Shown: positions 1,031 through 56,935 of the stretch, in pieces
Numbering within the stretch: position 1 is the first letter of the stretch
Layout: each line of letters begins with the position of its first letter
NCBI GenBank assembly: GCA_964609895.1
Contig: CAZSTG010000001.1
Coordinates: forward strand, 59,202 to 123,201
From: an uncultured Gammaproteobacteria bacterium
GTDB lineage: Bacteria; Patescibacteriota; Microgenomatia; UBA10105; UBA927
DNA length: 64,000 nucleotides
Reading direction: 5' to 3'
Notes under the pieces: generated by a model
What the model was told of the DNA's origin: nothing
The model's database searches: none
The model's input: the letters and a program-made list of their open reading frames with translations, nothing else
Translations under genes and position numbers: made by a program

Positions 1031-2314
1031 ATGGACATGATTACAGAAGGATTGACGCCCAAAATGGAGCGAATTCAGGGGGAACGGTTTGGGGCGGAGG
1101 GACTCTTTGCATTAAGCAAATTTATTATTCCCATCCAGACAGAGACCGTCGGGAAAATTGATTACACGGCACATATCATCAGAAGAGCGGAAAACCCACA
1201 GCTTGGTGCGGAACTTGCTCGGGGAGAAAAACGGCAGATGATCATGCTTTCCGGACTTGACACTTCGGGTCAGGATTGGCTTCGGATGGCTTCACAACTG
1301 ATGACGGATATGCCGGATGTGGAACAGCTGACGCTGCTTGATCACCCGTCCACCTCCGGCGTACGGCATGAACGAAGGGATGTTGCAATTAATACCACCT
1401 CATTTGAGAATTCAGCAAAAGTTATCTCTACTGCAATGGAGCGACTGGTCGAACAGGGTGAGATGAAGACCGGACAGATTGCCATCGGTATTTCCACAGG
1501 AAGCGCAGTACTTGAGGAACTGGTTGCACTTAATCCGAAAATGATTGACATTATGGTGCTTTGTGCGCCTGCAAGTATGCTCGATAGAACAGAAGAAAAA
1601 ATGATGAAAGGCGGTGCTCATGGAGGTACAGAATATTTAAAACAGTTTTTTACTGATCTTTTGAGAAGAATTCCAGAAAGACATTTGAAACCGAAATCAG
1701 AACGGAGCCCCGTCGCCCCAGTTGCCGTTGTAAAATCTATTCCAGAGGCAGCAAAAGGCATCATACCTGCTGATGATCTCAAAAAGATTCGATTTCAAAA
1801 CTTTGCTTTTGAAGGCGCGTTTTCTATCGGAAGAAAATTCCCTCGTTTTTGGCAACACTTTACCGGTATGTGGGGCGACAGTAATCCACACGTTCCTATA
1901 ATACAAGCAGATTACAAAAAAGATCTTGCGCTCGTTTCAAAAAACACGACAGAAAAAGCAAGGGAACAAATATCAGGAAAAAAAGTTGTTGTTGTGTTGG
2001 GTGTGGATGATCAGGCTGTTCCACCTGCGGAGTTTTTGTTGGAAGAAGACAAAAGACAACTTGAAACAATTGCTGATCAAAATGAAAAATCGGAAAAAAC
2101 AATCGACACAATTATTTCCAGAGTAAAAGGGAAGTTCAAAAATAATGTTGATACAACAGTTGTACTTGCGGTGGGAGGTCCAGATACACACGTTGGCATA
2201 AAAACAAACACGGAAGTATATGGACCGGTTATTGCCAATATTTTGGAGCCGATTGTGCCAAAATTGTCACTTTCAGGCGACTCGCTTAAACAATGGTTTG
2301 GAAAAAGTAATTAA
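1031..2314 (+). CDS. Hypothetical protein, alpha/beta-hydrolase-like (GxSxG nucleophile elbow 'GISTGS')
   Basis: 427 aa ORF with a G-I-S-T-G-S motif followed by a hydrophobic strand. No confident family assignment. Confidence 0.5.
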   Translation: MDMITEGLTPKMERIQGERFGAEGLFALSKFIIPIQTETVGKIDYTAHIIRRAENPQLGAELARGEKRQMIMLSGLDTSGQDWLRMASQLMTDMPDVEQLTLLDHPSTSGVRHERRDVAINTTSFENSAKVISTAMERLVEQGEMKTGQIAIGISTGSAVLEELVALNPKMIDIMVLCAPASMLDRTEEKMMKGGAHGGTEYLKQFFTDLLRRIPERHLKPKSERSPVAPVAVVKSIPEAAKGIIPADDLKKIRFQNFAFEGAFSIGRKFPRFWQHFTGMWGDSNPHVPIIQADYKKDLALVSKNTTEKAREQISGKKVVVVLGVDDQAVPPAEFLLEEDKRQLETIADQNEKSEKTIDTIISRVKGKFKNNVDTTVVLAVGGPDTHVGIKTNTEVYGPVIANILEPIVPKLSLSGDSLKQWFGKSN

Positions 2315-3078
2315 GAAAGTGTAAAAAGTGTCTCTGCATTTTTTGTCGTTTGTTCTTCAACAATCTGTATATCTATGTTTTGAAGTTTTGCAACAGTTTT
2401 GGCAATCAGCGGAACATATTTTGGTTCAGAACGCTGTCCTCGATGTCCTTCCGGAGGAAGATATGGTGAATCAGTTTCAAGGAGTAGTCTGTTAAGGGGA
2501 ATGGATGGAATCACCATCGCTAATTGTTTTGAATAGGTGGCATTTCCATCAAGGCCTATATAGAATCCGCGTTCAGTGATGTTTCTGATGTCTGCCAGTC
2601 CGCCCGAAAAACAGTGAAACACGCCATGCGGCATTGACGGCAGACTGTCGAGTACGTCAAAGATATCATCAAATGCATCTCTGCTGTGGATGATGACGGG
2701 CAGATTCAATTCGAGTGCAACGCGAAGCTGCATTTCAAAAAGTTGTTTCTGTTCCTCTTTTTTTCCGGTTGCGGGGTATTCTCCGTACGGATGGTAATCA
2801 AGTCCGCATTCACCGATGGCAACGTTGGTTTTGGTGATGAGTTTTTTTATGTCATTCGGAGAAAATTTATCCATCGCATTATACGGATGGATGCCGACGG
2901 CGGAATAAATGACACTGGGATTTGCAGCGGCAAGTGTCGCAGCACTAATGGACGTTTTGATGTCATCTCCCGGATTGATAAACTTTTTCACTCCTGCTTT
3001 TTTGGCGTTGCCGATCACCATCGCGCGGTCTTCATCGAAATTGGAAAAGTTGAGATGACAATGTGTATCGATAAACAT
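2311..3078 (-). CDS. tatD: TatD-family metal-dependent DNase/hydrolase
   Basis: MFIDTHCHLNF... canonical TatD N-terminus (HxH), ...GLDYH..., ...ETDSPYL. The start is set at ATG 3076-3078. Confidence 0.85.
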   Translation of the reverse strand: MFIDTHCHLNFSNFDEDRAMVIGNAKKAGVKKFINPGDDIKTSISAATLAAANPSVIYSAVGIHPYNAMDKFSPNDIKKLITKTNVAIGECGLDYHPYGEYPATGKKEEQKQLFEMQLRVALELNLPVIIHSRDAFDDIFDVLDSLPSMPHGVFHCFSGGLADIRNITERGFYIGLDGNATYSKQLAMVIPSIPLNRLLLETDSPYLPPEGHRGQRSEPKYVPLIAKTVAKLQNIDIQIVEEQTTKNAETLFTLS

Positions 3079-3088
3079 AACAGAATAA

Positions 3089-3128
3089 TACCAATAAATA
3101 CCAATAAGTACCAATAATTCAATAAATT
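3089..3128. repeat. 10-bp tandem repeat (TACCAATAAN x ~3.5) between the metG stop and the tatD start
   Basis: Plus strand reads taccaataaa|taccaataag|taccaataat|tcaataaatt. It shares a 15-nt core (atttattgaattatt on the opposite strand) and ttattggtatttattg with the region 53557-53615. Confidence 0.7.
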
Positions 3129-4554
3129 AGATGATGCGTGGAAACAGAGGTGTTTGAGACTGAATAGTGGGGCCTTTAAATTGGTTTAGTATTTTCTCCG
3201 CTGTTTCCGGAAGAAACGGCTGTAATTGCACAGCAATGGAGTGAATATTCTCAATTGTTGGAATAAGAGTTTTTTGCAGTTCATCTCCGGATAATGTCCA
3301 TGGTTTTTTGTCGTTCATATATTGATCCGTTTCTTTTATTTTTTCCCAAATAATTGAAAGTGCGTCATGTAAACGAAATTCTTCAATCGCTTTTTTATAA
3401 TCATTGGTATACATGTCCACATATTTCGCATTTAGCATTGGCCATGTAGCATTACCTGCGAGTTTAGCAATCCTTGATATAAGATTTCCCAAACCATTTG
3501 CGAGATCTGAGTTGTAGAGTTCCTTAAATCTTCGTTCGGAAAAATCTCCGTCAGCAAATGTCGGCAGTTCCCGAAGGAAATAGTAGCGCAGGCTTTCTGC
3601 GCCGTATTTTTCAATGAGTGTAACCGGATCAACGATGTTACCGACAGTTTTGCTCATCTTCTGTCCGTCGACGGTGAAGTATCCATGTACCAAAATTGTC
3701 TTTGGCAACGCAAGTCCCGCGGAGAGCAGAAATGCCGGCCAGTAAATCGCATGAAACCTATTGATACCTTTGCCGATGACATGAACATCGGCGGGCCACC
3801 ACTTTTTGTATTGTTTCTCGTCCCATCCGAAACCGACGCCCGACTGATAGATATTGAGCGCGTCAAACCACACATACATCCGTTGCGAGTTATCATCTGG
3901 CACTGGCACGCCCCAGTTTTTTGCCCGTTCATTGCTTCTGGAAATGCTGATATCTTGCAGTGGTTGTTTCAGGAATGCGAGCACCTCATTTTTTCTTGTT
4001 TCAGGAACAATACGAAGCGTATCTGATGTGACAAGATCTATAATTTGTTTTTGATATGTGGACAGCCGGAAAAAATAATTTTCTTCTTTCACGAGTTCGA
4101 GTTTTTTCCCAGGATGCTCGAAACATTCACCTTGGTTGTTCAGTTCGTCTTTCGTATAGTATTGTTCGCACCCGACACAATACAAACCCTCATAGGATTT
4201 TTTGTAGATGTCATGTTCGCAGAGTTTCCACAGTTTTTGGCTTGCTTTATAGTGATGTTCTTTATCGCTGCCTTTCTGGAATACATCAAACTGAACATTG
4301 AGTTTTTTGGCGAGCTCTCGGAACAGAACTGAGTTTTTGTCGATAAATTCCTGAAGCGGTACACCTGCTTTTTCCGCGGCCTGCACATTTTTCAGGGCAT
4401 TTTCGTCGCCGCCCGAGAGTAGGCATGTGTCATCACCCAACAGCCGGTGTGTGCGTGCAATGGTATCCGCCTGCACAAATTCCAGTGCATGACCTACGTG
4501 GGGAGCTGCGTTGACATACGGGATTGCTGTGGTGATATAAAACTTGTCTGCCAT
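3127..4554 (-). CDS. metG: Methionyl-tRNA synthetase (short form, 475 aa, no C-terminal tRNA-binding extension)
   Basis: MADKFYITTAIPYVNAAPHVGHALE (HIGH-type motif) ... KMSKT (KMSKS motif). Class I aaRS. Confidence 0.92.
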   Translation of the reverse strand: MADKFYITTAIPYVNAAPHVGHALEFVQADTIARTHRLLGDDTCLLSGGDENALKNVQAAEKAGVPLQEFIDKNSVLFRELAKKLNVQFDVFQKGSDKEHHYKASQKLWKLCEHDIYKKSYEGLYCVGCEQYYTKDELNNQGECFEHPGKKLELVKEENYFFRLSTYQKQIIDLVTSDTLRIVPETRKNEVLAFLKQPLQDISISRSNERAKNWGVPVPDDNSQRMYVWFDALNIYQSGVGFGWDEKQYKKWWPADVHVIGKGINRFHAIYWPAFLLSAGLALPKTILVHGYFTVDGQKMSKTVGNIVDPVTLIEKYGAESLRYYFLRELPTFADGDFSERRFKELYNSDLANGLGNLISRIAKLAGNATWPMLNAKYVDMYTNDYKKAIEEFRLHDALSIIWEKIKETDQYMNDKKPWTLSGDELQKTLIPTIENIHSIAVQLQPFLPETAEKILNQFKGPTIQSQTPLFPRII

Positions 4555-7557: not shown

Positions 7558-8181
7558 ATGAAATTTGTTATCGTTCATGGTGCATTTGGTTCCATAAAAG
7601 AAAATTGGTTTTCAGATTTACAAAACGATTTATTAGCCCTTGGTCAAGAGGTTATTCTTCCACAATTTCCAGTTGATGATTGGGATAAGATAACAAACGC
7701 TGGCCCAACAATTCCACAAGAACACCAGTATCTAAAAAACTGGTTGGCCACATTTGAGCCTATTGCAAAAACATGTAAACCAACAGATCAACTATGTTTT
7801 ATTGGTCATTCATTGGGTCCAGTTTTTATTCTTCATGTTGTTGAACAATTTCAATTACAACTCAACAGTGCAATTTTTGTCAGTCCGTTTATGGAATCGC
7901 TTCATTCTAAAGAATACTGGCAATTTGATCACGTTAATGATAGTTTTTATAAAAAAGATTTTGATTTTGCAGCAATGAAAAAACAAATCCCATTTTCTTA
8001 CGTAGTTTATTCAGATAATGATCCATATGTTGATAAAAAATTCCCCTTAGCATTTGCTGCATCACTTGGAAGTTCTTTGATACCAGTTGTCAACGCGGGT
8101 CATGTAAGTAATCCAAGGTATGAGTCATTATTACTTGAATTGTGTAAGACGAGAATAGATATAGCTTCATACTCGAAATAA
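7558..8181 (+). CDS. Alpha/beta-hydrolase, serine hydrolase (RBBP9/YdeN-like)
   Basis: MKFVIVHG...FIGHSLG (GHSLG nucleophile motif)...DNDPYV. The gene is distinctly AT-rich compared with its neighbours. Confidence 0.7.
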   Translation: MKFVIVHGAFGSIKENWFSDLQNDLLALGQEVILPQFPVDDWDKITNAGPTIPQEHQYLKNWLATFEPIAKTCKPTDQLCFIGHSLGPVFILHVVEQFQLQLNSAIFVSPFMESLHSKEYWQFDHVNDSFYKKDFDFAAMKKQIPFSYVVYSDNDPYVDKKFPLAFAASLGSSLIPVVNAGHVSNPRYESLLLELCKTRIDIASYSK

Positions 8182-13820: not shown

Positions 13821-14073
13821 ACTGGTATTATCGCGTTTTTTTTGATGTGTTACAATAGTAACAGCTTATGAAGAAACGTTCGCTCCCACGACGAAAAGCT
13901 TCAAGAAACGATAGATCGTTTACTCCCTTTATTGATCATAGGATTTTTCCGGATATTATTTCGTTCCATTATGTAAAAGGTCCGTTGCGGCTGTTTCTGC
14001 AGATAGAAATTGTTCTTGCCCTGTTGGTTGTGATTGGTTCCTGTGCCGTGCTTATCCTCAATGCAGTATCTGG

Positions 14074-35682: not shown

Positions 35683-35730
35683 TTCGGATTTTTAAATTTT
35701 TACAATTTCTATTCATAGAAATTCTTTAGA

Positions 35731-35759
35731 TTCACCCAAAGTTAGTAATGGGTTATAAT
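35731..35759 (+). promoter_or_regulatory. Candidate promoter TTCACC-17-TATAAT for the first methyltransferase gene (the -10 lies inside the annotated ORF start; the true start may be ATG 35772)
   Basis: ttcacc 35731-35736; tataat 35754-35759; in-frame ATG 35772 (MNKNFQSTKPIVIDLF). Confidence 0.4.
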
Positions 35760-36851
35760 GTAATTCCGATAATGAATAAAAATTTTCAATCCACTAAACC
35801 TATCGTTATTGACCTCTTTTCTGGTTGTGGAGGATTATCATATGGATTTTCTCAAGCGGGGTATGATGTTAGATTAGGAATAGATAATGATGAAACTGCT
35901 TTAAAAACTTTTGAATTAAACCATCCACATAGCAAAGGTGTAAATATTGATTTATCAGATAAATTTGCGATTAGTAAGATTAAAAAAATATTAGGTAATT
36001 CTAAGGTAGACGTTATTATCGGTGGTCCACCCTGTCAAGGATTTTCTTTAACAGGTACAAGAAAATTTGATGATGATCGAAATAAATTATATTTGTCTGT
36101 TATAAAGGCTGTAAAAGAATTAAAACCAAAAGCTTTTATGATAGAAAATGTAACTGGGATGGCCACCTTATATAAAGGAAAGGTAAAAGAAGAAATTATA
36201 AAGAGATTTAATAAATTAGGTTATAACGTCAATAGTCAAGTTTTATGTGCGGCTGACTATGGAGTACCTCAGATACGAAAAAGATTAATATTTATTGGAT
36301 TAAGAAAAAAATTAGGTGAATACGATTTCCCAATACCAACAAATAATCCAACAAATTATATATCTACCGCAGATGCCATAAGCGATTTACCTTCTCGAGA
36401 AAATAATATTGGTATTGAAGCAGATCAATATTTAAATAAACCAAAAACTGAATATCAAATTTTAATGAGAAAAAATTCAATTAAACTTTATAATCATGTT
36501 GCGACAATTCATTCTAAAAAGGTTATAGACGTGATTAAACTGGTACCAGAAGGGAAAAATTATAAAAGTTTACCAGAAGGCGTCGGCTCTCATAGAAAAT
36601 TTCATGAAGCTTGGACACGTTATCATAGTAAAAAACCTTCAAGGACTATCGACACAGGCCATCGTAATCATTTTCACTATAAGTATAATAGAGTTCCTAC
36701 AGTTCGCGAGAACGCCAGATTGCAATCCTTTCCAGATGTGTTTATTTTTCTTGGAAGTAAAACTCAGCAGAATAAGCATGTTGGCAATGCCGTTCCACCA
36801 CTACTAGGATATTGCGTTGCTAAAAAACTTTTACCTTATCTAAAAAAGTAG
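35748..36851 (+). CDS. DNA (cytosine-5)-methyltransferase (Dcm family), M1
   Basis: Motif I VIDLFSGCGGLSYGF; motif IV GGPPCQGFS; motif VI ENV; motif VIII QIRKRLIFIG; motif X GNAVPPLL. Confidence 0.92.
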   Translation: MGYNVIPIMNKNFQSTKPIVIDLFSGCGGLSYGFSQAGYDVRLGIDNDETALKTFELNHPHSKGVNIDLSDKFAISKIKKILGNSKVDVIIGGPPCQGFSLTGTRKFDDDRNKLYLSVIKAVKELKPKAFMIENVTGMATLYKGKVKEEIIKRFNKLGYNVNSQVLCAADYGVPQIRKRLIFIGLRKKLGEYDFPIPTNNPTNYISTADAISDLPSRENNIGIEADQYLNKPKTEYQILMRKNSIKLYNHVATIHSKKVIDVIKLVPEGKNYKSLPEGVGSHRKFHEAWTRYHSKKPSRTIDTGHRNHFHYKYNRVPTVRENARLQSFPDVFIFLGSKTQQNKHVGNAVPPLLGYCVAKKLLPYLKK

Positions 36852-36880
36852 CTAAAAATTTTAATTGCATCACGTTCAAT

Positions 36881-38110
36881 ATGAGGAAACTTAATGTTAT
36901 AGATTTGTTTGCCGGATGTGGAGGTTTAACTGATGGTTTTGAACAATCAGGTTTTTTTAAAACTCTAGCTTGTGTTGAATGGGATAAATCTTGTTGTGCA
37001 ACATTAGCTAAAAGATTAGCAAATAAATGGAATTATAAAAATGGTTCTGAAGTTGTTATCAGGTATGACATACAAAAAACTGCAGATTTGCTAAAAGGAT
37101 TTAATGATCCAAAATACGGATTTAATCTTGGGTTAAATAAACTTATTGAAAATAAAGTCGATTTATTGATTGGTGGTCCTCCATGTCAGGCGTATTCAGT
37201 TGCTGGTAGAATTAGAGACAAACACGGAATGCAACTAGATTATCGTAATTATCTTTTTGAAAGTTATATTAAAGTATTAGATAAATTTAGGCCAGAAATA
37301 TTTATTTTTGAAAATGTTTTAGGACTACTGAGTGCAAAGCCAGGTGGTGTTTCTATCATTAATAGAATAAAAAAAGCTTTTTCACAAATCGGTTATGAAA
37401 TTGTCGATGACATAAGGGGAAATGCAGTTTTTGACGTTGCGGATTATGGAGTTCCTCAAATAAGAAAACGTGTTATATTACTTGGTTTAAATAAAAATGT
37501 GTATAAAGAAAATAGGCAAAAAATTTTAATTGATTTTTATCAAAATATATTACCCTCATTTAAAGAACAACATAGGAAAACAGTTAAAGATGCAATTTTT
37601 GACCTTCCAAAATTTCAAATAAATAAATTAGAAATTGATTCAAACAACAAAGTGCAACCACATTTTTCTGAATCCATGTCTATATTAAATCATTATCCAA
37701 GATATCATAGTAAAAGAGATATTCAAATATTTTATGAATTAGCTTTGGATCAAAGTAAGGGGAATAAAAAATTTCATTCAGTTAAGGATATCAAAAAATT
37801 ATATACAGAAAAAACCGGTAAAATTTCTAATGTACATAAATATTTTGTTTTAAAATGGAATGAGCCTAGTAATACAATAGTTGCGCATCTATATAAAGAT
37901 GGGTTAAGACATATACATCCAGATTATAAGCAAGCGAGATCGATTTCCGTGCGTGAAGCGGCACGACTACAGTCGTTCGATGACGATTTTGAATTTTTAG
38001 GATCAATGGGTGATCAATATAAAATGATTGGAAATGCAGTTCCTCCGCTCTTTGCTAAAAAATTAGCTTGTGCCGTGCACAAGTTTAAAGTTAAATATAA
38101 TGGAGTATAA
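36881..38110 (+). CDS. DNA (cytosine-5)-methyltransferase (Dcm family), M2
   Basis: VIDLFAGCGGLTDGF; GGPPCQAYSVAGR; FENV; QIRKRVILLG; GNAVPPLF. The second adjacent m5C MTase has a distinct target-recognition domain insert. Confidence 0.92.
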   Translation: MRKLNVIDLFAGCGGLTDGFEQSGFFKTLACVEWDKSCCATLAKRLANKWNYKNGSEVVIRYDIQKTADLLKGFNDPKYGFNLGLNKLIENKVDLLIGGPPCQAYSVAGRIRDKHGMQLDYRNYLFESYIKVLDKFRPEIFIFENVLGLLSAKPGGVSIINRIKKAFSQIGYEIVDDIRGNAVFDVADYGVPQIRKRVILLGLNKNVYKENRQKILIDFYQNILPSFKEQHRKTVKDAIFDLPKFQINKLEIDSNNKVQPHFSESMSILNHYPRYHSKRDIQIFYELALDQSKGNKKFHSVKDIKKLYTEKTGKISNVHKYFVLKWNEPSNTIVAHLYKDGLRHIHPDYKQARSISVREAARLQSFDDDFEFLGSMGDQYKMIGNAVPPLFAKKLACAVHKFKVKYNGV

Positions 38111-38118
38111 TAAGATAA

Positions 38119-39117
38119 ATGAATGAACAGATATTATATATTCATAAACTGAACGCCCAAGAATTGGGTTTTAGACACGGTTCTTCTCATAAGGCTGGAA
38201 GATATATATATGTATCAAAAAAGTATTTAAATTTTTTTCCTCAATTAAGTGAATCGATTAAAAACGATCATATTCTTATTGATATTATTCCACCCGATTC
38301 TGACAAATTAATTTTGACTAATTATGTTTATCATAACGATAAAATAGTAGATTCAAAATCAAATGGTAGAAATGAATTTAGAATTTATTTGAATGAAGGA
38401 AATGATTTAGAAGGAAATTATTATCAGCCAAATGATATTGTTGTTATTCAGTCAGTAAAAATTGATGATAGTGCAACGTATAAAATATATAAATTTGACC
38501 AAATTCAACATGGTGTTGTATATCGACAACTTGACGAGTTATTGCGTAGATATGATAGTGCAGGAGCTTCTCATGCAATGATTCCGTTTGATGAACTTAA
38601 ATTTTTATCTATTCCTCAATATCCTACCGTAGATTTACAAAGTAAAGTTTTACCAAATGATGTAAAAGAAACAATTTTTAGTGCCCCAGTAGGTGTTTCA
38701 CTTCCATCTGAAGGGGAAGTGATTCGAAAAATTCGAAGCGCTAATTTTCGCGACTTAGTTCTCATGTTTTATGATTATAAATGTGCCGTCACTGGTAGAA
38801 GTAAAATAATTGAATATGGAACATTAACAAATCTTGAAGCGGCACATATTTATGCTTTTTCTAAAAGTGGAGGAGATAATCCATCAAACGGAATACCTTT
38901 GATTAAGGATATCCATTGGGCTTTTGATAATGGATTTTTTACTTTGACACCAGAATTTAAAATAAAAGTACATGATAATGCAATGAAAATTTCTTATTTA
39001 GCTGAATATAACAATAGGATTATAAATTTACCTGAAGATTCAAGAGCTAGACCTAATATGTCATCAATTGAGTGGCATAATAAGAATGTATTTGGTCAAT
39101 TTGTTAGGAAACAGTAA
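38119..39117 (+). CDS. Putative restriction endonuclease: N-terminal DNA-recognition domain fused to a C-terminal HNH nuclease domain
   Basis: C-terminal region CAVTGRSKI...LEAAHIYAFSKSGGDNPSNGIPLIKDIHWAFDNGFF matches the HNH (ββα-Me) signature (Cys/His-His...Asn...His). Immediately downstream of, and co-oriented with, the two MTases. Confidence 0.7.
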   Translation: MNEQILYIHKLNAQELGFRHGSSHKAGRYIYVSKKYLNFFPQLSESIKNDHILIDIIPPDSDKLILTNYVYHNDKIVDSKSNGRNEFRIYLNEGNDLEGNYYQPNDIVVIQSVKIDDSATYKIYKFDQIQHGVVYRQLDELLRRYDSAGASHAMIPFDELKFLSIPQYPTVDLQSKVLPNDVKETIFSAPVGVSLPSEGEVIRKIRSANFRDLVLMFYDYKCAVTGRSKIIEYGTLTNLEAAHIYAFSKSGGDNPSNGIPLIKDIHWAFDNGFFTLTPEFKIKVHDNAMKISYLAEYNNRIINLPEDSRARPNMSSIEWHNKNVFGQFVRKQ

Positions 39118-39276
39118 TTTTTTGCAGAGGTTAGTTTTATGAAGTTTGTTCCAAAATAACCTTAAGATTTGATCTTCGTTTCGATTTGTTATATACCAAC
39201 GGTAATCGATTTTGCTCCTTAAGAAGTTGGCGAGGATAACTTTCTCCCCAATAATTTGGGTTTCAGTTTATTTCAG

Positions 39277-39297
39277 CCCTCCTCGAGAGGGTATTTT
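39277..39297 (+). terminator. Intrinsic-terminator-like hairpin (CCCTC-ctcga-GAGGG) + TATTTT downstream of the endonuclease gene
   Basis: ccctcctcgagagggtatttt at 39277-39297. Confidence 0.5.
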
Positions 39298-39356
39298 AAA
39301 AATGCTTTCTCGGGGGAGGCAGTATTTAGACTTCCCAAATTTATTATAGAGAGGAG

Positions 39357-39542
39357 GTGAAAGGTATGGCATACTTTGTTATCTATACGGATTATAAAGG
39401 AGAATACCGTTGGAGGTTAAAAGCCAATAACGGTGAAATAGTTGCAGATAGTGAAGGTTATCAAACCAAACAATCGGCAATAAATTCGGCAAATTGGGTA
39501 AAAACCAATGCGCCTAATGCATCCATACAGGATCAAGTCTAA
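39357..39542 (+). CDS. DUF1508/YegP-family small protein
   Basis: MAYFVIYTDYKGEYRWRLKANNGEIVADSEGYQTKQSAINSANWVKTNA. Matches the YegP/UPF0339 repeat pattern (KGEYRFRLKA.NGEII..SEGY..K......I). Strong RBS gagaggaggtg upstream. Confidence 0.7.
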   Translation: MKGMAYFVIYTDYKGEYRWRLKANNGEIVADSEGYQTKQSAINSANWVKTNAPNASIQDQV

Positions 39543-39550
39543 CACTTGAT

Positions 39551-40075
39551 TCACGCCTCGTCAGCTTTTTGAGGAGCTATTTTAATATATACTCTAACTT
39601 TTCCTCGTTTTAGAATCAGCTTTTTTCTGAGCGCTTCGAGAAGATAGGGAATGCTCAGATATTGTGCGAGTTGTTTTATGAGAAGTTTTTGTACTTCCAT
39701 TGGTAACGCAAACACATTTGGTGCTTCCATAAACCTAGCGGCATTTGTCAGATGTTGGAGGATAGGACAGGAGGACATCACACAGAGTGATTTTTCTTTT
39801 TGTTTTTCAACAACGGTGTTGAATAGTAATTTTCCTAGTCCTTTTCCCTGAAATCTTAGGAGTGTGACAAGCGGCCCGATTTTTACCCAGTTTTTTGTTT
39901 CAGCTATGCAGCACACCCCTGCAAATTCTTTGTCCACAAAGATACAGTATGGATTTGGATATCGTTTCCAGTTTTTTCGATCGACGAATGCGAGGTCTGG
40001 CGCGGTTTTGATGGAGGAAATAAGCTCGGTAATTTCTTGTTCCGTGAGCGTGTGTTTTTCGATTGTGACTTGCAT
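39551..40075 (-). CDS. GNAT-family N-acetyltransferase
   Basis: ...LRFQGKGLGKLLFNTVVEKQ (acetyl-CoA-binding Q/RxxGxG/A motif). Confidence 0.75.
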   Translation of the reverse strand: MQVTIEKHTLTEQEITELISSIKTAPDLAFVDRKNWKRYPNPYCIFVDKEFAGVCCIAETKNWVKIGPLVTLLRFQGKGLGKLLFNTVVEKQKEKSLCVMSSCPILQHLTNAARFMEAPNVFALPMEVQKLLIKQLAQYLSIPYLLEALRKKLILKRGKVRVYIKIAPQKADEA

Positions 40076-44787: not shown

Positions 44788-46617
44788 GTGAAAGTATACA
44801 TGCAAAATAAGTTTAAGCACCATGGCAGTAGGCCATCGTGGTTCAGGAATCCCCAAGCGCAACCACAGCAAAAAAATGAGCAGGGGAAACGTACAAAACA
44901 ATTCGTGGGAGTCGGCAAAAGCGATTTTCGTGGCTCTCCTTCAGGCAAGGAATCATTGCGGTTTATCCCCATCGGCGGCAGCGGCAACGTGACGAAAAAC
45001 ATGTTCGCGTATGAACTGCGGTATGACGGACGGATAACAGATATCTTGCTCGTCGACTGCGGCATCGGATTTCCTGATGCGGACATGTACGGCGTGGATG
45101 TCGTTATTCCGGATGTCCGGTATTTGGAGGACAAAAAACAATACATCAGAGGGCTCGTGTTTACCCACGGACATGATGATCATATCGGGGCAATCCCGTA
45201 CATCTATCCGAAGTTAGGGAACATTCCCATGTGGGGAACACCGCTCACCGCGGCGTTTGCAAATTTGAAACTGAAGGAAACAAAAATTGCGTCCCGTGTG
45301 AAGTCTGTGGATTTTTCGGAAGTCCTGCATATCGGACCGTTTACGGTTTCGTTTGTCCGCATGACGCATTCCGTGCCGGACACATCCAACCTCATTATCG
45401 AGACGCCCGTCGGTATTTTTTACCACGGCAGTGATTTCAAGTTTGATTTCGATCCCTTGGATGGGAAAAAATCAGAACTGGACAAGATTAATGCAGCGGG
45501 AGACCGCGGAGTTTTGTGTCTCATGACGGATTCACTCGGGAGTGAACGTGCAGGGTTTACTCCATCAGAACAAAAGATTCGTGAGAGCATCGAAAAAGAA
45601 CTTGCGATGTGTCAGGGAAAGTTTTTGTTTACGACCCAATCATCAAACATTTCCCGTATCCAACTTGCGATAGACGTCGCAATTACAGCCGGTAGAAAGA
45701 TTGCATTTTTTGGGCGAAGCATCGATAAAAATGTAGAGGAAGCATTTAATCTCGGGTATATGAAATTCCCGAGGGATATGGTGGTACGCGACAGGGATCT
45801 CAAGAAGATGCCGGCCAACAAGATGTTTTTGATTGTGGCAGGAGCTCAAGGACAACCTGAATCAGCGCTCACCAGAATGGCAAATGACAATCATACATTT
45901 GTTTCCATTGCGGACGGGGATACCGTCATGTTCAGTGCAGATCCGATTCCAGGAAATGAAAACAGTGTCGGCACGATCATCGATCAGTTGTATCGGGATG
46001 GCGCACGCGTGTCATACACCAACATCATGGAAGACTTGCATGTGTCAGGACACGGATCGCAGGGGGATCACATGCTGATGCTCACGGCACTTGGCCCGTC
46101 GTTTGTATTGCCAATTGGAGGAACGTATCGGCATATCATGAATTACCGGACAATTGCCATGGAATGCGGCTGGAAAAAACACCAGATTCTGATGCCGGAT
46201 GAGGGGGATATTCTGGAATTTAGGAAAGGCCAAACACCAAAAGTTGCCCAACATATTACCCTTGAAAACGTCATGGTGGACGGACTCGGAATCGGCGATG
46301 TCGGCAGCATTGTACTGCGTGACCGTCAGACCATCGCAAACGAGGGAATTGTGGTTGTCGTCGTACCGGTGGAAAAATCAACAGGAAAAGTGACGAGTGC
46401 GCCCGATATTATCTCGCGGGGATTTGTGTATATCAAGGAATCCGGAGATTTGCTCAATCGCGCACGAAAAATCGTGAGCGATTCACTCCGCGTGAAACAC
46501 GGCAGATCCATGGATTGGCACTATATGCGGGAACTCATCGAAGACAATCTGCAGAAATTCCTCAAAAAAGAAACAGGCAGACAGCCCCTCATCGTTCCTG
46601 TCATTCTTGAGGTATAA
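44788..46617 (+). CDS. rnj: Ribonuclease J (metallo-beta-lactamase/beta-CASP RNase) with an ~80-aa basic N-terminal extension
   Basis: VFTHGHDDHIGAIPY (HxHxDH)...GSDFKFD...MTDSLG...VSGHGSQGD...beta-CASP and C-terminal domain. Confidence 0.9.
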   Translation: MKVYMQNKFKHHGSRPSWFRNPQAQPQQKNEQGKRTKQFVGVGKSDFRGSPSGKESLRFIPIGGSGNVTKNMFAYELRYDGRITDILLVDCGIGFPDADMYGVDVVIPDVRYLEDKKQYIRGLVFTHGHDDHIGAIPYIYPKLGNIPMWGTPLTAAFANLKLKETKIASRVKSVDFSEVLHIGPFTVSFVRMTHSVPDTSNLIIETPVGIFYHGSDFKFDFDPLDGKKSELDKINAAGDRGVLCLMTDSLGSERAGFTPSEQKIRESIEKELAMCQGKFLFTTQSSNISRIQLAIDVAITAGRKIAFFGRSIDKNVEEAFNLGYMKFPRDMVVRDRDLKKMPANKMFLIVAGAQGQPESALTRMANDNHTFVSIADGDTVMFSADPIPGNENSVGTIIDQLYRDGARVSYTNIMEDLHVSGHGSQGDHMLMLTALGPSFVLPIGGTYRHIMNYRTIAMECGWKKHQILMPDEGDILEFRKGQTPKVAQHITLENVMVDGLGIGDVGSIVLRDRQTIANEGIVVVVVPVEKSTGKVTSAPDIISRGFVYIKESGDLLNRARKIVSDSLRVKHGRSMDWHYMRELIEDNLQKFLKKETGRQPLIVPVILEV

Positions 46618-52874: not shown

Positions 52875-53510
52875 ATGAACACCGTCGGCACCATGTTAAA
52901 ACAAGCAAGAGTCGCCAAAGGTATTACCCTGCAGGAAGTGGAGAAACAAACAAAGATCAGACTGAAATTTTTGGAAGCAATTGAGAAAGACGCATATCAC
53001 TTATTGCCATCTCCTGTCTACGCAAAAGGATTTGTAAAAAACTACAGTGAATATCTAGGGCTTGAGAGTGCGACAATCATGGCTTTTTTCCGGCGTCAGA
53101 GCGATGATGTAAAACGGACGGTGATTCTGCCGAAAAAAGCGCAGGAAATAGAAGCAAAAGGACTGCGGCTTACTCCAGGCAGGTTTATCACCATTTTACT
53201 GATCGGATTGTCCGTTTTGTTTTTGTCGTATTTTTTGATGCAATATCAGAAACTGCAGCGCCCGCCGGAACTCACCATTACCAAACCCGTTCATGAAAGC
53301 ATCGTTGGAGAAAAAAAGTTGGATGTGATGGGGCAGACTAATAGTGATACCACAGTGACGGTAAACGGACTCAGTGTCTCCGTACGGGGTGATGGGAAAT
53401 TTTTTACACAGGTGACACTTGAGTCGGGAGTGAACACTATTACGGTCATTGCAACGTCGAGGTTTGGTAAAACCAAAACAGAAGTGTTAAAAGTTGGCCT
53501 GCAGCAATAG
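52875..53510 (+). CDS. rodZ: RodZ-like cytoskeleton-associated protein (XRE-type HTH + TM + C-terminal beta domain)
   Basis: TMLKQARVAKGITLQEVEKQTKIRLKFLEAIEKDAY (HTH)...YAKGFVKNYSEYLGL...one TM helix (FITILLIGLSVLFL). Confidence 0.7.
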   Translation: MNTVGTMLKQARVAKGITLQEVEKQTKIRLKFLEAIEKDAYHLLPSPVYAKGFVKNYSEYLGLESATIMAFFRRQSDDVKRTVILPKKAQEIEAKGLRLTPGRFITILLIGLSVLFLSYFLMQYQKLQRPPELTITKPVHESIVGEKKLDVMGQTNSDTTVTVNGLSVSVRGDGKFFTQVTLESGVNTITVIATSRFGKTKTEVLKVGLQQ

Positions 53511-53517
53511 GATCTTA

Positions 53518-53546
53518 TTGACAGAAATAGTTGTTTGCTTTATTGT
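53518..53546 (+). promoter_or_regulatory. Candidate promoter TTGACA-17-TATTGT upstream of the small membrane protein / ytxH pair
   Basis: ttgaca 53518-53523; tattgt 53541-53546. Confidence 0.4.
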
Positions 53547-53556
53547 ATTCATACTA

Positions 53557-53615
53557 ATTCAATAAATATTTATATTTTGAGTATTGGTTTATTGGTATTT
53601 ATTGAATTATTACCG
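53557..53615. repeat. A/T-rich repeat element: 12-bp perfect inverted repeat aattcaataaat ... atttattgaatt flanking TATTGGT direct repeats. Related to the tandem repeat at 3089-3128.
   Basis: aattcaataaat (53557-53568); tattggt ttattggta tttattgaattatt (53583-53612). Shares atttattgaattatt and ttattggtatttattg with the complement of 3085-3128. Confidence 0.65.
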
Positions 53616-53630
53616 TAAGGTATCCTGCCT

Positions 53631-53894
53631 ATGGATCCAGTACAGATAACGATCATCGTAATAAGCTTCATTTTAGTCACCCTCATTGTCATTTTGACGA
53701 TTCAGACGATCGGCATCATGAAAGAATTCAAGTTAACAGTGCAAAAAATTAATAAGATGCTTGATGACGGCGGAAAAGTCACGGGTATTGTGAGTGATTC
53801 AGCTACAAGTATTGCGGGTGTGATTGGCGGCATTAAAACTGGTATGAATGTGTTTTCGATGTTTCGTCGGAAAGGAGAATCCCATGAACAATGA
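53631..53894 (+). CDS. Small membrane protein (DUF948-like: N-terminal TM + short coiled region)
   Basis: MDPVQITIIVISFILVTLIVILTIQTIGIMKEFKLTVQKINKMLDD... Confidence 0.5.
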   Translation: MDPVQITIIVISFILVTLIVILTIQTIGIMKEFKLTVQKINKMLDDGGKVTGIVSDSATSIAGVIGGIKTGMNVFSMFRRKGESHEQ

Positions 53895-54264
53895 CAGAGA
53901 CAATAAGTTTATGATCGGTTTTTTCATCGGGGGACTCATCGGCGCAGGCGTCATGTTTTTGATGGGAACAAAAGAAGGAAAAAAAGTTGAGAAGATGTTG
54001 GAGAGGAAAGGAAAAGAGGCACTGGATGATATAGAAGACAAAGTGGATGAACTGAAGGAAAAAGGGGAAGAACTGTTGAAAAAAGGCGAAGCGATTAAGG
54101 AACAAGTGCTGGAACAAATCGAAGATAAAAAAGATGACTTAACGGAAGAAGCGTCAAGACGCTTAGATAGTGCGCTTGCAAATGTCGTGGAGATTCAGGA
54201 AAAAGGTGTTGCAACAACCACCAACCTTCGGAAGCGCCTGTTCAAGAACGTGCCAAAGAGATAA
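53884..54264 (+). CDS. YtxH-like protein (Gly-rich N-terminal helix + coiled-coil)
   Basis: MNNDRDNKFMIGFFIGGLIGAGVMFLMGTKEGKKVEKMLERKGKEALDDIEDKVDELKEKGEELLKKGE. Start reset to ATG 53884. Confidence 0.6.
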   Translation: MNNDRDNKFMIGFFIGGLIGAGVMFLMGTKEGKKVEKMLERKGKEALDDIEDKVDELKEKGEELLKKGEAIKEQVLEQIEDKKDDLTEEASRRLDSALANVVEIQEKGVATTTNLRKRLFKNVPKR

Positions 54265-54339: not shown

Positions 54340-55284
54340 ATGAAGATTGCGATCTTTTTGCCGAAAACTGTTTTTACAGAGAATCAACTTCAAAAACTAT
54401 CCGGTCTTGGTGATGTTGTTTTTACCGCAGATGATAAAGAAATGACACTTGATGCGTGTATAGCGCACGCAAAAGATGCAGAAATCTTAGGAATTGATCT
54501 TGATAATTTTGGAGGATTTGATAAAGGACGTGAACAAACGACAAAACTCTTGCTTGCAAGTCCTTCAGTAAAAGGCATTTCATTGTCTACAACCTCTTTT
54601 GGTTGGGTGGATTTGGAGTACTGCAAAAAACAGAACATTCCTGTTTGTAATGTCCCCGGATATTCCCGCGAATCTGTTGCTGAACACACCATTGCACTGC
54701 TGATGTGTATGGCAAAACGAATATTGCTTTCTGACAGGCGCACGCAAAAAGGTGAGTTTAAAATGGAAATGGGATTCGAACTCGCAGGCAAAACACTCGG
54801 TATTATCGGACTTGGAAATATCGGTACGCGAACGGCAGAACTTGCACGGGGGATTGGCATGAACGTGATTGCATATAATCATTCGCCAAAGACCGTTTCC
54901 GGTGTGACGATGAAAACGTTGGATGAGGTACTTGCAGAATCTGATGCAATCGCATTTCATACAACACATACGGACGCAAACAAAGGATTTATTGGAAAAG
55001 AACAAATTGCAAAAATGAAAAAAGGTGTGATCATCGTTAACACTGCTGATGAAACACTCGTAGATGAGGCGGCAATGGCGGAAGCATTAAAGAGTGGTCA
55101 GGTCGATACCTATACAAGTGAGGGAACCCTATTTGAAGGCACGCCGCTTGCCGGTATGGAGCGGGCGATAGGGCTTAAAGGATTCGGTTATTTTACAAAA
55201 GAGGCACTGCAGAATCTATTTGAAATATTTGTCGAAAATATCGAGGCGTTAGTTCAAGGAAAACCAATTCATACAGTTCAGTAA
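54340..55284 (+). CDS. D-isomer-specific 2-hydroxyacid dehydrogenase (NAD-binding; glyoxylate/hydroxypyruvate reductase or PGDH-like)
   Basis: GKTLGIIGLGNIGTRTAELARGIGMNVIAYN (Rossmann GxGxxG)...catalytic His/Glu/Arg context (AIAFHTTHTD). Confidence 0.8.
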   Translation: MKIAIFLPKTVFTENQLQKLSGLGDVVFTADDKEMTLDACIAHAKDAEILGIDLDNFGGFDKGREQTTKLLLASPSVKGISLSTTSFGWVDLEYCKKQNIPVCNVPGYSRESVAEHTIALLMCMAKRILLSDRRTQKGEFKMEMGFELAGKTLGIIGLGNIGTRTAELARGIGMNVIAYNHSPKTVSGVTMKTLDEVLAESDAIAFHTTHTDANKGFIGKEQIAKMKKGVIIVNTADETLVDEAAMAEALKSGQVDTYTSEGTLFEGTPLAGMERAIGLKGFGYFTKEALQNLFEIFVENIEALVQGKPIHTVQ

Positions 55285-55295
55285 TCATAATATAT

Positions 55296-55748
55296 ATGGA
55301 TAATGTGATTTTTTCTAAAGTAAAAACAGATAAAGATTGGGAGTTGTTGCTAGAGTTGGAGAAGAAAGCGGCAGATTGTAGTCCGTATTATTTGGCCTTC
55401 ACTAATATTACTGATCTAAAAAAATTTGTTGGTGACAGTGTTATTTATCTTATGTTTGAATCAAGAATTCCTATCGGTCACGTAGAGTATGAATTAAAAA
55501 ATAATAGAGCAGAAATCACGGGCTTTGTATTATTGCCGGAATATAGAGGAAAAGGTTTAGGAAAATTATTATTTGGAAAGGCAATGGATGATTTGAAAGA
55601 GATAAAAAATATTTTTCTTATGACCCATCCAGAAAATACAGCTGCTTTAAAAGTATATCTTTCAGCAGGATTTACAATCAAAGCATGGAAGGATAATTAT
55701 TACGGCAACGGTCAACCCAGACTGCAATTAGAAATAAATAGAGGATAA
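55296..55748 (+). CDS. GNAT-family N-acetyltransferase (AT-rich)
   Basis: ...LLPEYRGKGLGKLLFGKAMDD... acetyl-CoA motif. Confidence 0.75.
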   Translation: MDNVIFSKVKTDKDWELLLELEKKAADCSPYYLAFTNITDLKKFVGDSVIYLMFESRIPIGHVEYELKNNRAEITGFVLLPEYRGKGLGKLLFGKAMDDLKEIKNIFLMTHPENTAALKVYLSAGFTIKAWKDNYYGNGQPRLQLEINRG

Positions 55749-55750
55749 TT

Positions 55751-56935
55751 TCATCTTCCTTTGTGGTTTTTTAGAAGAACTATTGTCGTTGGTATTGTTG
55801 TTACAACAGTGAGTATTCCAAGACTAAACATCACCCATCCGCTTCCAAGTTTTGTAAGTATTGGATTTAATGCAAACGTTAAAAGAAAATAAACAAGACT
55901 CACACTCATGTTGAGCGCAGAAATAGCTGTTGCGCGGTATTTCGATTCAAACTCTTGGTTGGTATATTGATCAAGAAATGTAAATCGGACGATACTGATG
56001 AAATAGATGAGGAAGATCATAATTGCAGCACCGATTTTGGGTACAAAGGGAGAGGGTAAAAATCCAAGCATCATGATGATTGGGAAAAGCGTATAAGTTG
56101 CTGTTTTTGAAAGAATTTTTTTCTTTGTTAGAACGATACTTAATACTCCAACGAATAGACTGTTGATTGCAGACAACCATCCACGTGTGACTGGAGAAAA
56201 TCCGACATCTGTCATGTAGGCATTTAAGAGGAAATAAAGATAATACCACGTAATTCCTCCGATAGAGATGTAGTACAGAGAAAAATCTCTGATATATGGA
56301 GTTTTCCATAGTTCTGCAAATCCTCGTTTTGTTTGCCGGATGTAATTTGATAATGTGAATTTTTCTGTATCAATATGGGGTTCGACCATAAAAAGAGTAA
56401 TGATACCGGAAATGATCATCGATACACCGACCAATGTGTATGGAAGTCCTTTGTTGAGAAGAAAGATATATCCGCCAAGCGCCGTTCCGATGATGACGCC
56501 TATTCGATACACCATTTCATTTTCGCTGACTTTCACATTGAAGGATTGTTCCTCGTGAAGTTCTTTCAACGTATCGTAATACAACGCGATATTTGCGCCC
56601 GAGATAAATGTGTTGCCGATCTGTGCAATCACATATCCTGCCCATAGCCATGAGACATCTTTCGCACATGCGATCACGATCCAAGCTGCGCCATGAATCG
56701 CATATCCGAAGGCGACGATAATTTTTCTGCCGAGAAGATCGGCAAGCGCGCCGGTTGGTAGTTCTAAAATGACTGCAATGAGATGTGTGACAGCATAGAT
56801 AACTGCGAGTGTCGCACCGTCAGTAAATTGTGTTTCGTAGGCATACCAGATCGGCATGAAAAACAGTAGAGAGTTAAAAAACCACGAGATGCGGTAGAGA
56901 ATGAGATTCTTTCGGAGGTTGTCTTGATAGGACAT
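55751..56935 (-). CDS. MFS transporter
   Basis: 394 aa, 12 predicted TM helices. Confidence 0.75.
   Translation of the reverse strand: MSYQDNLRKNLILYRISWFFNSLLFFMPIWYAYETQFTDGATLAVIYAVTHLIAVILELPTGALADLLGRKIIVAFGYAIHGAAWIVIACAKDVSWLWAGYVIAQIGNTFISGANIALYYDTLKELHEEQSFNVKVSENEMVYRIGVIIGTALGGYIFLLNKGLPYTLVGVSMIISGIITLFMVEPHIDTEKFTLSNYIRQTKRGFAELWKTPYIRDFSLYYISIGGITWYYLYFLLNAYMTDVGFSPVTRGWLSAINSLFVGVLSIVLTKKKILSKTATYTLFPIIMMLGFLPSPFVPKIGAAIMIFLIYFISIVRFTFLDQYTNQEFESKYRATAISALNMSVSLVYFLLTFALNPILTKLGSGWVMFSLGILTVVTTIPTTIVLLKNHKGR

What the first reader, a model, noticed from the sequence alone, without database searches (positions are those of the whole stretch)
53557..53615. Perfect 12-bp inverted repeat with internal TATTGGT direct repeats in the promoter/leader of the 53631-54264 membrane-protein pair
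The inverted repeat aattcaataaat (53557-53568) / atttattgaatt (53598-53609) brackets tattggtttattggta. It lies just downstream of a TTGACA-17-TATTGT promoter, so it would be in the 5' UTR. The geometry is typical of a dimeric repressor operator or an RNA stem-loop. It is related to the 3089-3128 repeat.
Basis: seen in the sequence. Interest (0 to 1): 0.5.

Follow-up and report, generated by a model that had tools for sequence, protein, structure and literature searches.

The report
Palindrome inside a lineage-specific promoter-like repeat insertion
The palindrome is real, but it is a by-product of a short AT-rich repeat block found only in this bacterial lineage, so it is not a conserved regulator binding site; a sister copy of the repeat seems to act as a small promoter for another gene.

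Summary
The inverted repeat exists, one base left of the stated coordinates. It has perfect 13-nt arms at 53555-53567 and 53597-53609, or 17 nt with one mismatch. TATTGGT occurs at 53582 and 53590.

The upstream TTGACA-17-TATTGT promoter is conserved in six Gottesmanbacteria/Microgenomates lineages.

The block is built from 9-10-nt units, TTATTGGTAT and TTATTGAAT. Three are direct and one is inverted, and the inverted one creates the palindrome.

The related array at 3079-3128 (period 10) is also absent from three relatives. It is 44-45/46 identical at the same metG-tatD junction in another Microgenomates genome whose flanks are only 74% identical. Its last unit forms TGGTATTAT 6 nt before the tatD ATG, and leaderless-type geometry is common in this genome. 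A unit two turns upstream supplies a -35-like TTGGTA. Similar arrays sit in front of dnaX and radA in other genomes.

Best reading: this is a degenerate copy of a promoter-like decamer-array repeat lying in the operon's leader. It is not an ancestral operator or riboregulator. Function is untested.

The parts
53518..53546 (+). Conserved sigma-70-type promoter of the 87-aa/YtxH operon: -35 TTGACA at 53518-53523, 17-nt spacer, -10 TATTGT at 53541-53546.
   Evidence: 10 of 12 matches. TTGAC and TTTATTGT are invariant in six lineages.
53555..53620 (+). Lineage-specific AT-rich block. It adds a net 59 nt and replaces about 7 nt (ATTTGAT) of the ancestral leader. The boundaries are ambiguous by a few nt, because TTTATTG at 53539 and 53598 flanks it as a direct repeat.
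   Evidence: Absent from L003-L013. Identical in two other assemblies of the same population, L001 and L002.
53555..53567 (.). Left arm of the palindrome, TAATTCAATAAAT. It contains an inverted TTATTGAAT unit at 53557-53565.
53597..53609 (.). Right arm of the palindrome, ATTTATTGAATTA. It spans the end of unit TTATTGGTAT and the whole of unit TTATTGAAT.
53582..53607 (+). Direct units: TATTGGT(T) at 53582-53589, TTATTGGTAT at 53589-53598 and TTATTGAAT at 53599-53607. Start-to-start spacing of the TATTG cores is 8, 10 and 8 nt. The array is too short and irregular for TRF to call.
53631..53894 (+). Gene for an 87-aa membrane protein. It has no Pfam match, and 73 homologues were found; the few that carry a source name are Gottesmanbacteria or Microgenomates.
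53884..54264 (+). YtxH-like gene, the second gene of the pair.
3079..3128 (-). Sister array in the metG-tatD spacer, read on the minus strand: TTTATTGAAT TATTGGTAC TTATTGGTAT TTATTGGTAT TATTCTGTT. Period 10, 3.1 copies, 95% matches.
   Evidence: Absent from L014-L020. 44-45/46 identical in L062.
3085..3114 (-). Promoter-like site made from the array: TTGGTA, 18-nt spacer, TG-extended TATTAT. It ends 6 nt before the tatD ATG at 3078.
   Evidence: The same geometry occurs at other genes in the window.
2311..3078 (-). tatD (TatD-family hydrolase), the gene directly downstream of the sister array.
   Evidence: (PF01026).
3129..4554 (-). metG (methionyl-tRNA synthetase). Its stop codon directly abuts the sister array.

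Best explanation
The palindrome is a structural by-product of a short repeat insertion. It is not an ancestral regulatory site.

Shown:
- In this lineage only, about 59 nt of AT-rich DNA lie between the conserved -10 box and the start codon of the 87-aa/YtxH operon.
- The block is made of 9-10-nt units (TTATTGGTAT, TTATTGAAT), three direct and one inverted. The inverted unit plus the last direct unit give the 13/17-nt inverted repeat.
- The same unit family forms the period-10 array between metG and tatD.

Inferred from sequence geometry:
- That array is a self-contained sigma-70 promoter. Its last unit reads TGGTATTAT (an extended -10) 6 nt before the tatD ATG, which is the leaderless spacing used by about a third of genes in this window. 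The unit two helical turns upstream supplies a -35-like TTGGTA with an 18-nt spacer.
- The family therefore behaves like a small promoter-like repeat that gets copied in front of genes.
- The 53.5-kb copy is degenerate. Its terminal unit reads TGAATTATT, not TGGTATTAT, and it sits inside the transcript made from the older promoter.
- Its likeliest present effect is passive or modulatory. It lengthens the leader from about 20 to about 80 nt and places a 16-17-bp A-U hairpin at the very 5' end of the mRNA. That could alter mRNA stability or start-codon access, but it is not a conserved control device.

The way the repeat is copied (slippage plus ectopic copying, or a mobile mechanism) is unknown.
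For: - Absent from all orthologous 87-aa loci, while the promoter and 21 nt around the start codon are invariant.
- Locus A is absent from three relatives. It is 44-45/46 identical in L062, whose flanks are 74% identical. It is one of the two most conserved 46-nt windows in a 5.3-kb alignment.
- The distribution is patchy. The window groups with L014 (93% bootstrap) and L062 with L019 (81%), and both L014 and L019 lack the array.
- The promoter scan calls TTGGTA-18-TATTAT with a preceding TG on the tatD strand.
- -10 hexamers peak 6-7 nt before start codons, and 19 of 54 genes show this geometry.
- Arrays ending in TGGTATTAT sit 7 nt before dnaX (L065, Paceibacterota) and radA (L053). Others precede genes in L029, L032 and L035.
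- The two loci share exact 16-mer and 15-mer blocks.
- The predicted 5' hairpin is -20.9 kcal/mol with z = -2.56.
Against: - Only two copies occur in 64 kb, and none occur in about 200 kb of relatives.
- A profile of locus A alone hits locus B only at E=0.52 after composition correction, so common origin rests on the exact shared blocks.
- The array at 53.5 kb does not itself score as a promoter.
- No transcription start site data exist, and no copying mechanism is identified.
- The near-perfect cross-species conservation of all 46 nt at locus A exceeds what a -35/-10 pair needs, and would also fit a protein-binding array.
- The source genome and the second locus of the L062 genome could not be retrieved.
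Confidence: 0.5

Rival explanations
1. The direct decamer units, rather than the palindrome, are an operator array for a lineage-restricted DNA-binding protein. Candidates would be a response regulator or a ribbon-helix-helix type protein that binds phased direct repeats. Such a protein would co-regulate tatD and the 87-aa/YtxH operon.
For: - Unit spacing is 8-10 bp, about one helical turn.
- Both arrays lie just upstream of start codons and in the same orientation as the downstream gene.
- 44-45 of 46 nt are conserved between two species at locus A.
- Presence or absence of the two arrays agrees in the three genomes where both loci are known: the window has both, while L009/L015 and L012/L019 have neither.
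Against: - No candidate regulator was identified.
- The RodZ-like HTH gene is present in relatives that lack the arrays.
- No match to any binding motif I could recall.
- Similar arrays occur in unrelated genomes in front of unrelated genes, which fits a generic promoter better than a specific regulon.
Confidence: 0.2
2. The inverted repeat functions as an RNA stem-loop at the 5' end of the operon mRNA. It would be selected in this lineage either to stabilise the transcript against 5'-end-dependent decay (RNase J is encoded at 44788-46617) or to gate translation.
For: - The hairpin starts at 53552-53555, right where a start site 6-8 nt after the -10 box would fall.
- The minimum free energy is -20.9 kcal/mol with z = -2.56. 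A second small stem pairs inserted bases 53613-53621 with the start codon region.
- RNase J domains are found in the neighbourhood.
Against: - The element is absent from all orthologues, so no covariation is available.
- The stem is A-U only.
- There is no Rfam family. The best sub-threshold hit scores 17.6 bits against a gathering score of 39.9.
- The sister array has no significant fold (z = -0.18 and +0.67), so structure is not the shared property of the family.
Confidence: 0.12
3. It is a miniature selfish mobile element, MITE-like or REPIN-like, with 13-17-nt terminal inverted repeats. It would have no promoter role, and locus A would be a rearranged relative.
For: - It is an insertion relative to all orthologues, bounded by an inverted repeat whose outermost bases are TA.
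- A second related insertion lies 50 kb away.
- The phylogenetic distribution is patchy while the sequence is near-identical across species.
Against: - Locus A has no inverted repeat at all.
- There is no clear target-site duplication.
- Only two copies occur in 64 kb.
- A scan of JGI metagenomes for the two arms found only unrelated AT-rich hairpins.
- No transposase was linked to it.
Confidence: 0.13
4. It is a chance palindrome in low-complexity AT-rich spacer DNA.
For: 19% of whole-window shuffles contain at least one 12-nt inverted repeat. nhmmer's composition correction removes most of the score linking loci A and B.
Against: - Only 0.04% of shuffles of the spacer itself give such a repeat.
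- The same 13-mer occurs a third time exactly, at locus A.
- The block is a discrete insertion.
Confidence: 0.05

Closest known systems
Putative mobile promoters (Matus-Garcia, Nijveen and van Passel 2012, PMC3488235)
   Same: Highly similar non-coding stretches directly upstream of non-homologous genes with non-homologous flanks. They sometimes recur across genera and are proposed to rewire transcription.
   Different: The published definition needs an alignment of at least 50 nt at 80% identity or more. Here the shared stretch is only about 33-40 nt. The element is also a tandem array of a 10-nt unit, which that survey did not describe.
Correia elements and other promoter-bearing MITEs (from my own knowledge)
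   Same: Small intergenic insertions with terminal inverted repeats. They can supply promoter elements and form RNA hairpins in leaders.
   Different: Correia elements are 100-150 bp, have 26-bp inverted ends and a TA duplication, and occur in hundreds of copies. This block is about 59 nt, its sister has no inverted ends, and only two copies were seen.
REP/REPIN and BIME/NIME intergenic mosaic repeats (REPIN population paper PMC8049555 seen; the rest is from my own knowledge)
   Same: Mosaics of short units in direct and inverted orientation, confined to spacers and lineage-specific.
   Different: REP units are themselves GC-rich palindromes of about 20-40 nt and are mobilised by RAYT transposases. 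These units are 9-10 nt, A/T-rich and non-palindromic, and no RAYT is known here.
Extended -10 (TGnTATAAT) promoters driving leaderless mRNAs (established knowledge of sigma-70 promoters)
   Same: Locus A ends in TGGTATTAT 6 nt before the ATG. This matches TGGTATAAT-6-ATG at 7558 and TGGTATCAT-6-ATG at 43691.
   Different: The promoter is generated by a tandem repeat whose earlier units also provide the -35-like hexamer. The copy under review has lost the good -10.

Membership tests
Dimeric repressor operator (palindromic) | Half-sites separated by a short spacer, so that one dimer contacts both. | tested here: not met
   The arms are 29 nt apart, 42 bp centre to centre.
Dimeric repressor operator (palindromic) | Site conserved at orthologous promoters that keep the same genes. 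| tested here: not met
   Absent from L003-L013, although the promoter, both genes and the RodZ-like gene are kept.
Dimeric repressor operator (palindromic) | Specific protein binding. | not testable with these tools
   Needs EMSA or a pull-down.
Curated cis-regulatory RNA (Rfam) | Match at or above a family's gathering score. | tested here: not met
   No match at gathering threshold in the window. The best sub-threshold hit is cyano-S1 at 17.6 bits against 39.9, E=0.87.
Structured RNA leader in general | Base pairs supported by covariation across homologues. | tested here: inconclusive
   There are no homologous copies to compare. The only other sequences are 100% identical assemblies of the same population. 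Stability alone gives z = -2.56.
MITE | Terminal inverted repeats. | tested here: inconclusive
   Present at 53.5 kb (13-17 nt) but absent from the sister array at 3.1 kb.
MITE | Target-site duplication. | tested here: inconclusive
   A TA at both ends is part of the palindrome. TTTATTG flanks the block, but it is also the ancestral -10 region.
MITE | Many dispersed copies and a related autonomous element. | tested here: inconclusive
   Two copies in 64 kb. The rest of the genome could not be reached, because the source genome is not among the GTDB representatives scanned.
Putative mobile promoter (PMC3488235) | Upstream regions align over at least 50 nt at 80% identity or more. | tested here: not met
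   The alignment of locus A with locus B covers about 33 nt with two gaps. The criterion was read.
Putative mobile promoter (PMC3488235) | Downstream and upstream coding sequences are not homologous. | tested here: met
   metG/tatD against RodZ-like/87-aa gene.
Extended -10 leaderless promoter (applies to locus A) | TGn plus a TAnnnT hexamer with at least 5 of 6 matches, placed at the distance from the ATG seen at other genes of this genome. | tested here: met
   TGGTATTAT lies 6 nt before the ATG. The genome-wide peak is at 6-7 nt.
Extended -10 leaderless promoter (applies to the 53.5-kb copy) | The same feature within the array under review. | tested here: not met
   The terminal unit reads TGAATTATT. 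The promoter scan reports only the conserved upstream promoter and a weak TTCATA-17-TATATT.
Extended -10 leaderless promoter | Transcription start mapped at the start codon. | not testable with these tools
   Needs 5' RACE or dRNA-seq.

The most novel reading that the evidence does not exclude
A tandem array of a 10-nt unit (TTATTGGTAT) may be a portable, self-contained promoter cassette. The unit carries both a -35-like and an extended -10-like motif, and three units make a working leaderless promoter. Such a cassette would spread within and between genomes of Candidate Phyla Radiation bacteria, and possibly others, installing new transcription starts directly at start codons. The palindromic copy at 53.5 kb would be a rearranged or decaying member.
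Probability: 0.25. Interest if true: 0.6.

Novelty: new variant of a known kind. Interest (0 to 1): 0.35.

Why it matters
For the finding as written, the result is deflationary. The palindrome should not be treated as a conserved operator or riboregulator of the YtxH-type operon.

The wider point is modest but useful. Candidate Phyla Radiation genomes are very compact and poorly understood at the level of gene control. This work gives sequence evidence that leaderless promoters are common here. It also suggests that a very short tandem repeat can create such a promoter, at a junction where most relatives have metG and tatD only 3-11 nt apart.

If the array family proves to be multi-copy and transferable, it would be an unusually small vehicle for rewiring transcription.

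Tried and rejected
- **Genome-collection scan** for TATTGGTATTTATTGNNATTA. It gave 47 hits. Most are chance matches or coding sequence, because these codons spell hydrophobic helices such as YWYLLVL and LVFIGI. The source genome is not in that collection. The useful hits were L062, L065, L053/L029, L032, L035 and L054.
- **Metagenome scan** for the two palindrome arms with a 15-45-nt gap. It gave 26 unrelated AT-rich hairpins and no relatives.
- **Viral-collection scans**. Three AT-rich contigs (one named as a giant-virus MAG) carry perfect (TTATTGGTAT)n arrays, probably independent minisatellites. The locus-B-type pattern found nothing.
- **Literature search** for the unit sequence found only primers.
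- **Coding reading of the arrays.** At locus A the array is in frame with tatD, giving a possible TTG start and the peptide VLIGIYWYYSV. At locus B a 13-codon micro-ORF is possible. I rejected this. The units have no stop in any forward frame, so openness is trivial. Locus B has an in-frame TAA before the gene. 98% nucleotide identity across species at locus A is not a coding pattern.
- **Replication origin or dif site next to ftsK.** Rejected because cumulative GC skew rises monotonically across the window and the arm spacing is wrong.
- **Known binding motifs recalled from memory** (ARG box, Fur/PerR/Zur boxes, PhoP/PmrA repeats, sigma-54, IHF). None fits.
- **Extending the window.** One look-up failed and the others returned only identical short contigs. 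Searches of the added sequence and of about 200 kb from relatives found no further copies.

Full report
**1. The observation**

The sequence between the RodZ-like gene (52875-53510) and the 87-aa gene (53631-53894) is 120 nt long with 25% G+C. The inverted repeat is real but lies one base to the left of the stated coordinates.
- The perfect arms are 13 nt: TAATTCAATAAAT at 53555-53567 and ATTTATTGAATTA at 53597-53609. With one mismatch they extend to 17 nt at 53552-53568 and 53596-53612.
- TATTGGT occurs at 53582 and 53590.
- The promoter-like TTGACA-17-TATTGT is at 53518-53546.

It is the only perfect inverted repeat in the window with arms of at least 12 nt and a loop of at most 60 nt. Window-wide shuffles give 0.23 such repeats on average, so the palindrome alone is only borderline. 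Shuffles of the spacer itself give one in 0.04% of trials.

**2. Organism and genes**

- Homologues of the 87-aa protein number 73. The few that carry a source name are Candidatus Gottesmanbacteria or the Microgenomates group, so this is a Candidate Phyla Radiation bacterium.
- Pfam confirms FtsK, a RodZ-like protein with HTH_25 plus a beta-sandwich domain, and a YtxH-like second gene. The 87-aa protein has no Pfam family.
- Logan contigs from runs SRR8925774 and SRR8925805 are 100% identical to the window at both repeat loci. The sequence is therefore not an assembly artefact, but these contigs are the same population and carry no evolutionary information.

**3. Conservation test at the 53.5-kb locus**

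I fetched the orthologous locus from five other lineages (L003-L006, L007, L008, L009-L011, L012-L013). Their 87-aa proteins are 72-98% identical to the window's, and their DNA is about 72-80% identical.
- In all of them the spacer is 56-84 nt, against 120 nt in the window.
- The alignment keeps TTGAC, TTTATTGT and 21 nt around the start codon (CCTGCCTATGGATCCAGTACA) invariant.
- The window has about 59-60 extra bases that contain the whole palindrome and both TATTGGT copies.

This has two consequences. The promoter call is strengthened by phylogenetic footprinting.

**4. Anatomy of the inserted block**

The block is made of short units.
- Reading 5' to 3', it holds an inverted TTATTGAAT (53557-53565), an AT-rich linker, then direct units TATTGGT(T), TTATTGGTAT and TTATTGAAT (53582-53607), followed by TATTACCGTAAGG.
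- The palindrome exists because one unit is inverted relative to the last direct unit. Complementarity stops after 17 nt.
- TTTATTG of the ancestral -10 region occurs on both sides of the block, at 53539 and 53598. The first copy keeps the ancestral distance to the -35 box. The second keeps the ancestral distance to the ATG, 25 nt against 24 nt. The exact insertion point is therefore ambiguous.

**5. The sister array at 3079-3128**

- On the minus strand it reads TAA|TTTATTGAAT TATTGGTAC TTATTGGTAT TTATTGGTAT TATTCTGTT|ATG. It lies between the metG stop codon and the tatD start codon.
- TRF reports period 10, 3.1 copies and 95% matches.
- It shares an exact 16-mer and an exact 15-mer with the 53.5-kb block.
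- A profile made from locus A alone ranks the 53.5-kb block as the best other hit in the window, but only at E=0.52 after composition correction. Common origin is therefore likely rather than proven.
- Relatives L014-L016 and L019-L020 have only 3 to 11 nt between metG and tatD. L017 has different genes there. The array is thus an insertion too.

**6. An unexpected orthologue**

The genome-collection scan hit JBAQFJ010000001.1, a Microgenomates MAG (locus L062), at its own metG-tatD spacer.
- The array there is 44-45/46 identical to the window's, while the flanking genes are 74% identical at the DNA level (TatD 78% and MetRS 81% at the protein level).
- In a sliding comparison over 5.3 kb it is one of the two most conserved 46-nt windows. 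The mean is 28.9 identical positions with sd 9.7.
- A neighbour-joining tree of MetRS, TatD and a glycosyltransferase (957 positions) puts the window with L014 (93% bootstrap) and L062 with L019 (81%). Both L014 and L019 lack the array.

The distribution is therefore patchy. It requires either two gains of an almost identical sequence at the same junction or several precise losses. In either case the array has been strongly constrained or recently moved.

**7. What the array looks like functionally**

- The promoter scan calls TTGGTA, an 18-nt spacer and a TG-preceded TATTAT on the tatD strand. It ends 6 nt before the ATG.
- Across the window, good -10 hexamers pile up 6-7 nt before start codons, and 19 of 54 genes show this geometry. 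Examples are TGGTATAAT-6-ATG at 7558 and TGGTATCAT-6-ATG at 43691. This is the signature of leaderless mRNAs.
- Because the unit is 10 nt long, the unit two turns upstream of the last one automatically supplies the -35-like hexamer. Three units are enough to build a promoter.
- RNA folding of the array with the tatD start is no better than shuffled sequence (z = -0.18 in the window and +0.67 in L062). Structure does not explain the conservation.

Other non-coding arrays that end in TGGTATTAT lie just upstream of genes in other genomes:
- 7 nt before dnaX in a Paceibacterota MAG (L065);
- 7 nt before radA in a MAG labelled Gammaproteobacteria (L053), with a second array on the same contig (L029);
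- ahead of Shine-Dalgarno leaders in L032 and L035. L035 has two arrays 2.5 kb apart.

The same 33-mer also occurs inside a coding sequence in L041, where it encodes a hydrophobic helix.

**8. What this means for the 53.5-kb palindrome**

This copy lacks the good terminal -10. It reads TGAATTATT, and the scan finds no promoter in its array. It lies downstream of the conserved promoter, so it should be transcribed as part of the leader.

A start site 6-8 nt after TATTGT would fall at 53552-53554, exactly at the foot of the stem. The predicted RNA has a 16-17-bp A-U hairpin at its 5' end. A smaller stem pairs inserted bases with the start codon. The fold is -20.9 kcal/mol with z = -2.56. As DNA the hairpin is weak, at -7.1 kcal/mol.

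A 5'-terminal hairpin can protect mRNAs from 5'-end-dependent decay (established knowledge from other bacteria), and RNase J is encoded nearby. That effect is possible. There is no evidence that it is selected.

**9. Comparison with known families**

- Rfam has no match.
- As an operator, the site fails on arm spacing and on conservation. Its proposed partner, the RodZ-like HTH protein, is present in every relative that lacks the site.
- As a MITE or REPIN, the evidence is mixed. The block has inverted ends and is an insertion, but the sister array has no inverted ends, there is no clear target duplication, and only two copies were seen.
- The closest concept is the putative mobile promoter. 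The published criterion of at least 50 nt at 80% identity is not met.

I therefore describe it as a new variant of short promoter-like intergenic repeats, with function untested.

**10. Limits**

- The source genome is not in the scanned species collection.
- The look-up quota ended before the second locus of the L062 genome could be examined.
- No expression data are available.
- The promoter reading of locus A rests on sequence geometry, and the effect of the 53.5-kb copy is inference.

Noticed in passing
window 53621-53641: Twenty-one bases around the start codon of the 87-aa gene (CCTGCCTATGGATCCAGTACA) are invariant in all six lineages, including synonymous positions. The surrounding DNA is 72-80% identical. 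This suggests a constraint on the translation-initiation region beyond coding.
   Followed up: no
window, many gene starts (for example 7558, 43691, 4554, 50671, 55751-56935 minus): -10-like hexamers, often with a TG extension, end 6-7 nt before start codons at about a third of genes. Leaderless mRNAs therefore look common in this CPR genome. For several ORFs (1031, 4599, 46607) the real start is probably an ATG a few codons inside the longest ORF.
   Followed up: partly
window 54340-55748: A 2-hydroxyacid dehydrogenase gene and a GNAT acetyltransferase gene follow the YtxH gene only in this lineage. Relatives go straight to the MFS transporter or to alaS. G+C is lower here, at 0.39.
   Followed up: no
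window about 35700-40000: A low-G+C island (0.30-0.34) includes an ORF at 35748-36851 with a motif typical of C5 cytosine methyltransferases (GVPQIRKRLIFIG, read). It may be a restriction-modification island.
   Followed up: no
window 10123-10201 and 14210-14288; 13361-14073: A 79-nt inverted repeat, 77% complementary, has arms 4 kb apart. A 713-nt stretch without a long ORF contains its own 27-nt inverted repeat at 13717-13743 and 13942-13968.
   Followed up: no
L035 1344 and 3904 (minus strand); L029 and L053 (same contig CAZWNZ010000001.1): MAGs labelled Gammaproteobacteria carry two TATTGGTA-type arrays each. In L035 both arrays are preceded by TTCAAATTGG. The array type may be a dispersed family in those genomes too.
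   Followed up: partly
L097 882-936, L098 2337-2361, L099 2213-2267 (IMG/VR): Three AT-rich viral contigs, one of them named as a giant-virus MAG, carry perfect tandem arrays of the same decamer, (TTATTGGTAT) x 4-7, in non-coding DNA. Whether they are related to the bacterial arrays or arose independently is unknown.
   Followed up: no
L041 about 7950-8000 (minus strand): The 33-mer TATTGGTACTTATTGGTATTTATTGGTATTATT, identical to locus A, lies inside a long open reading frame of a Patescibacteria MAG. There it encodes a hydrophobic helix. It could be an in-frame insertion of the array or a coincidence.
   Followed up: no
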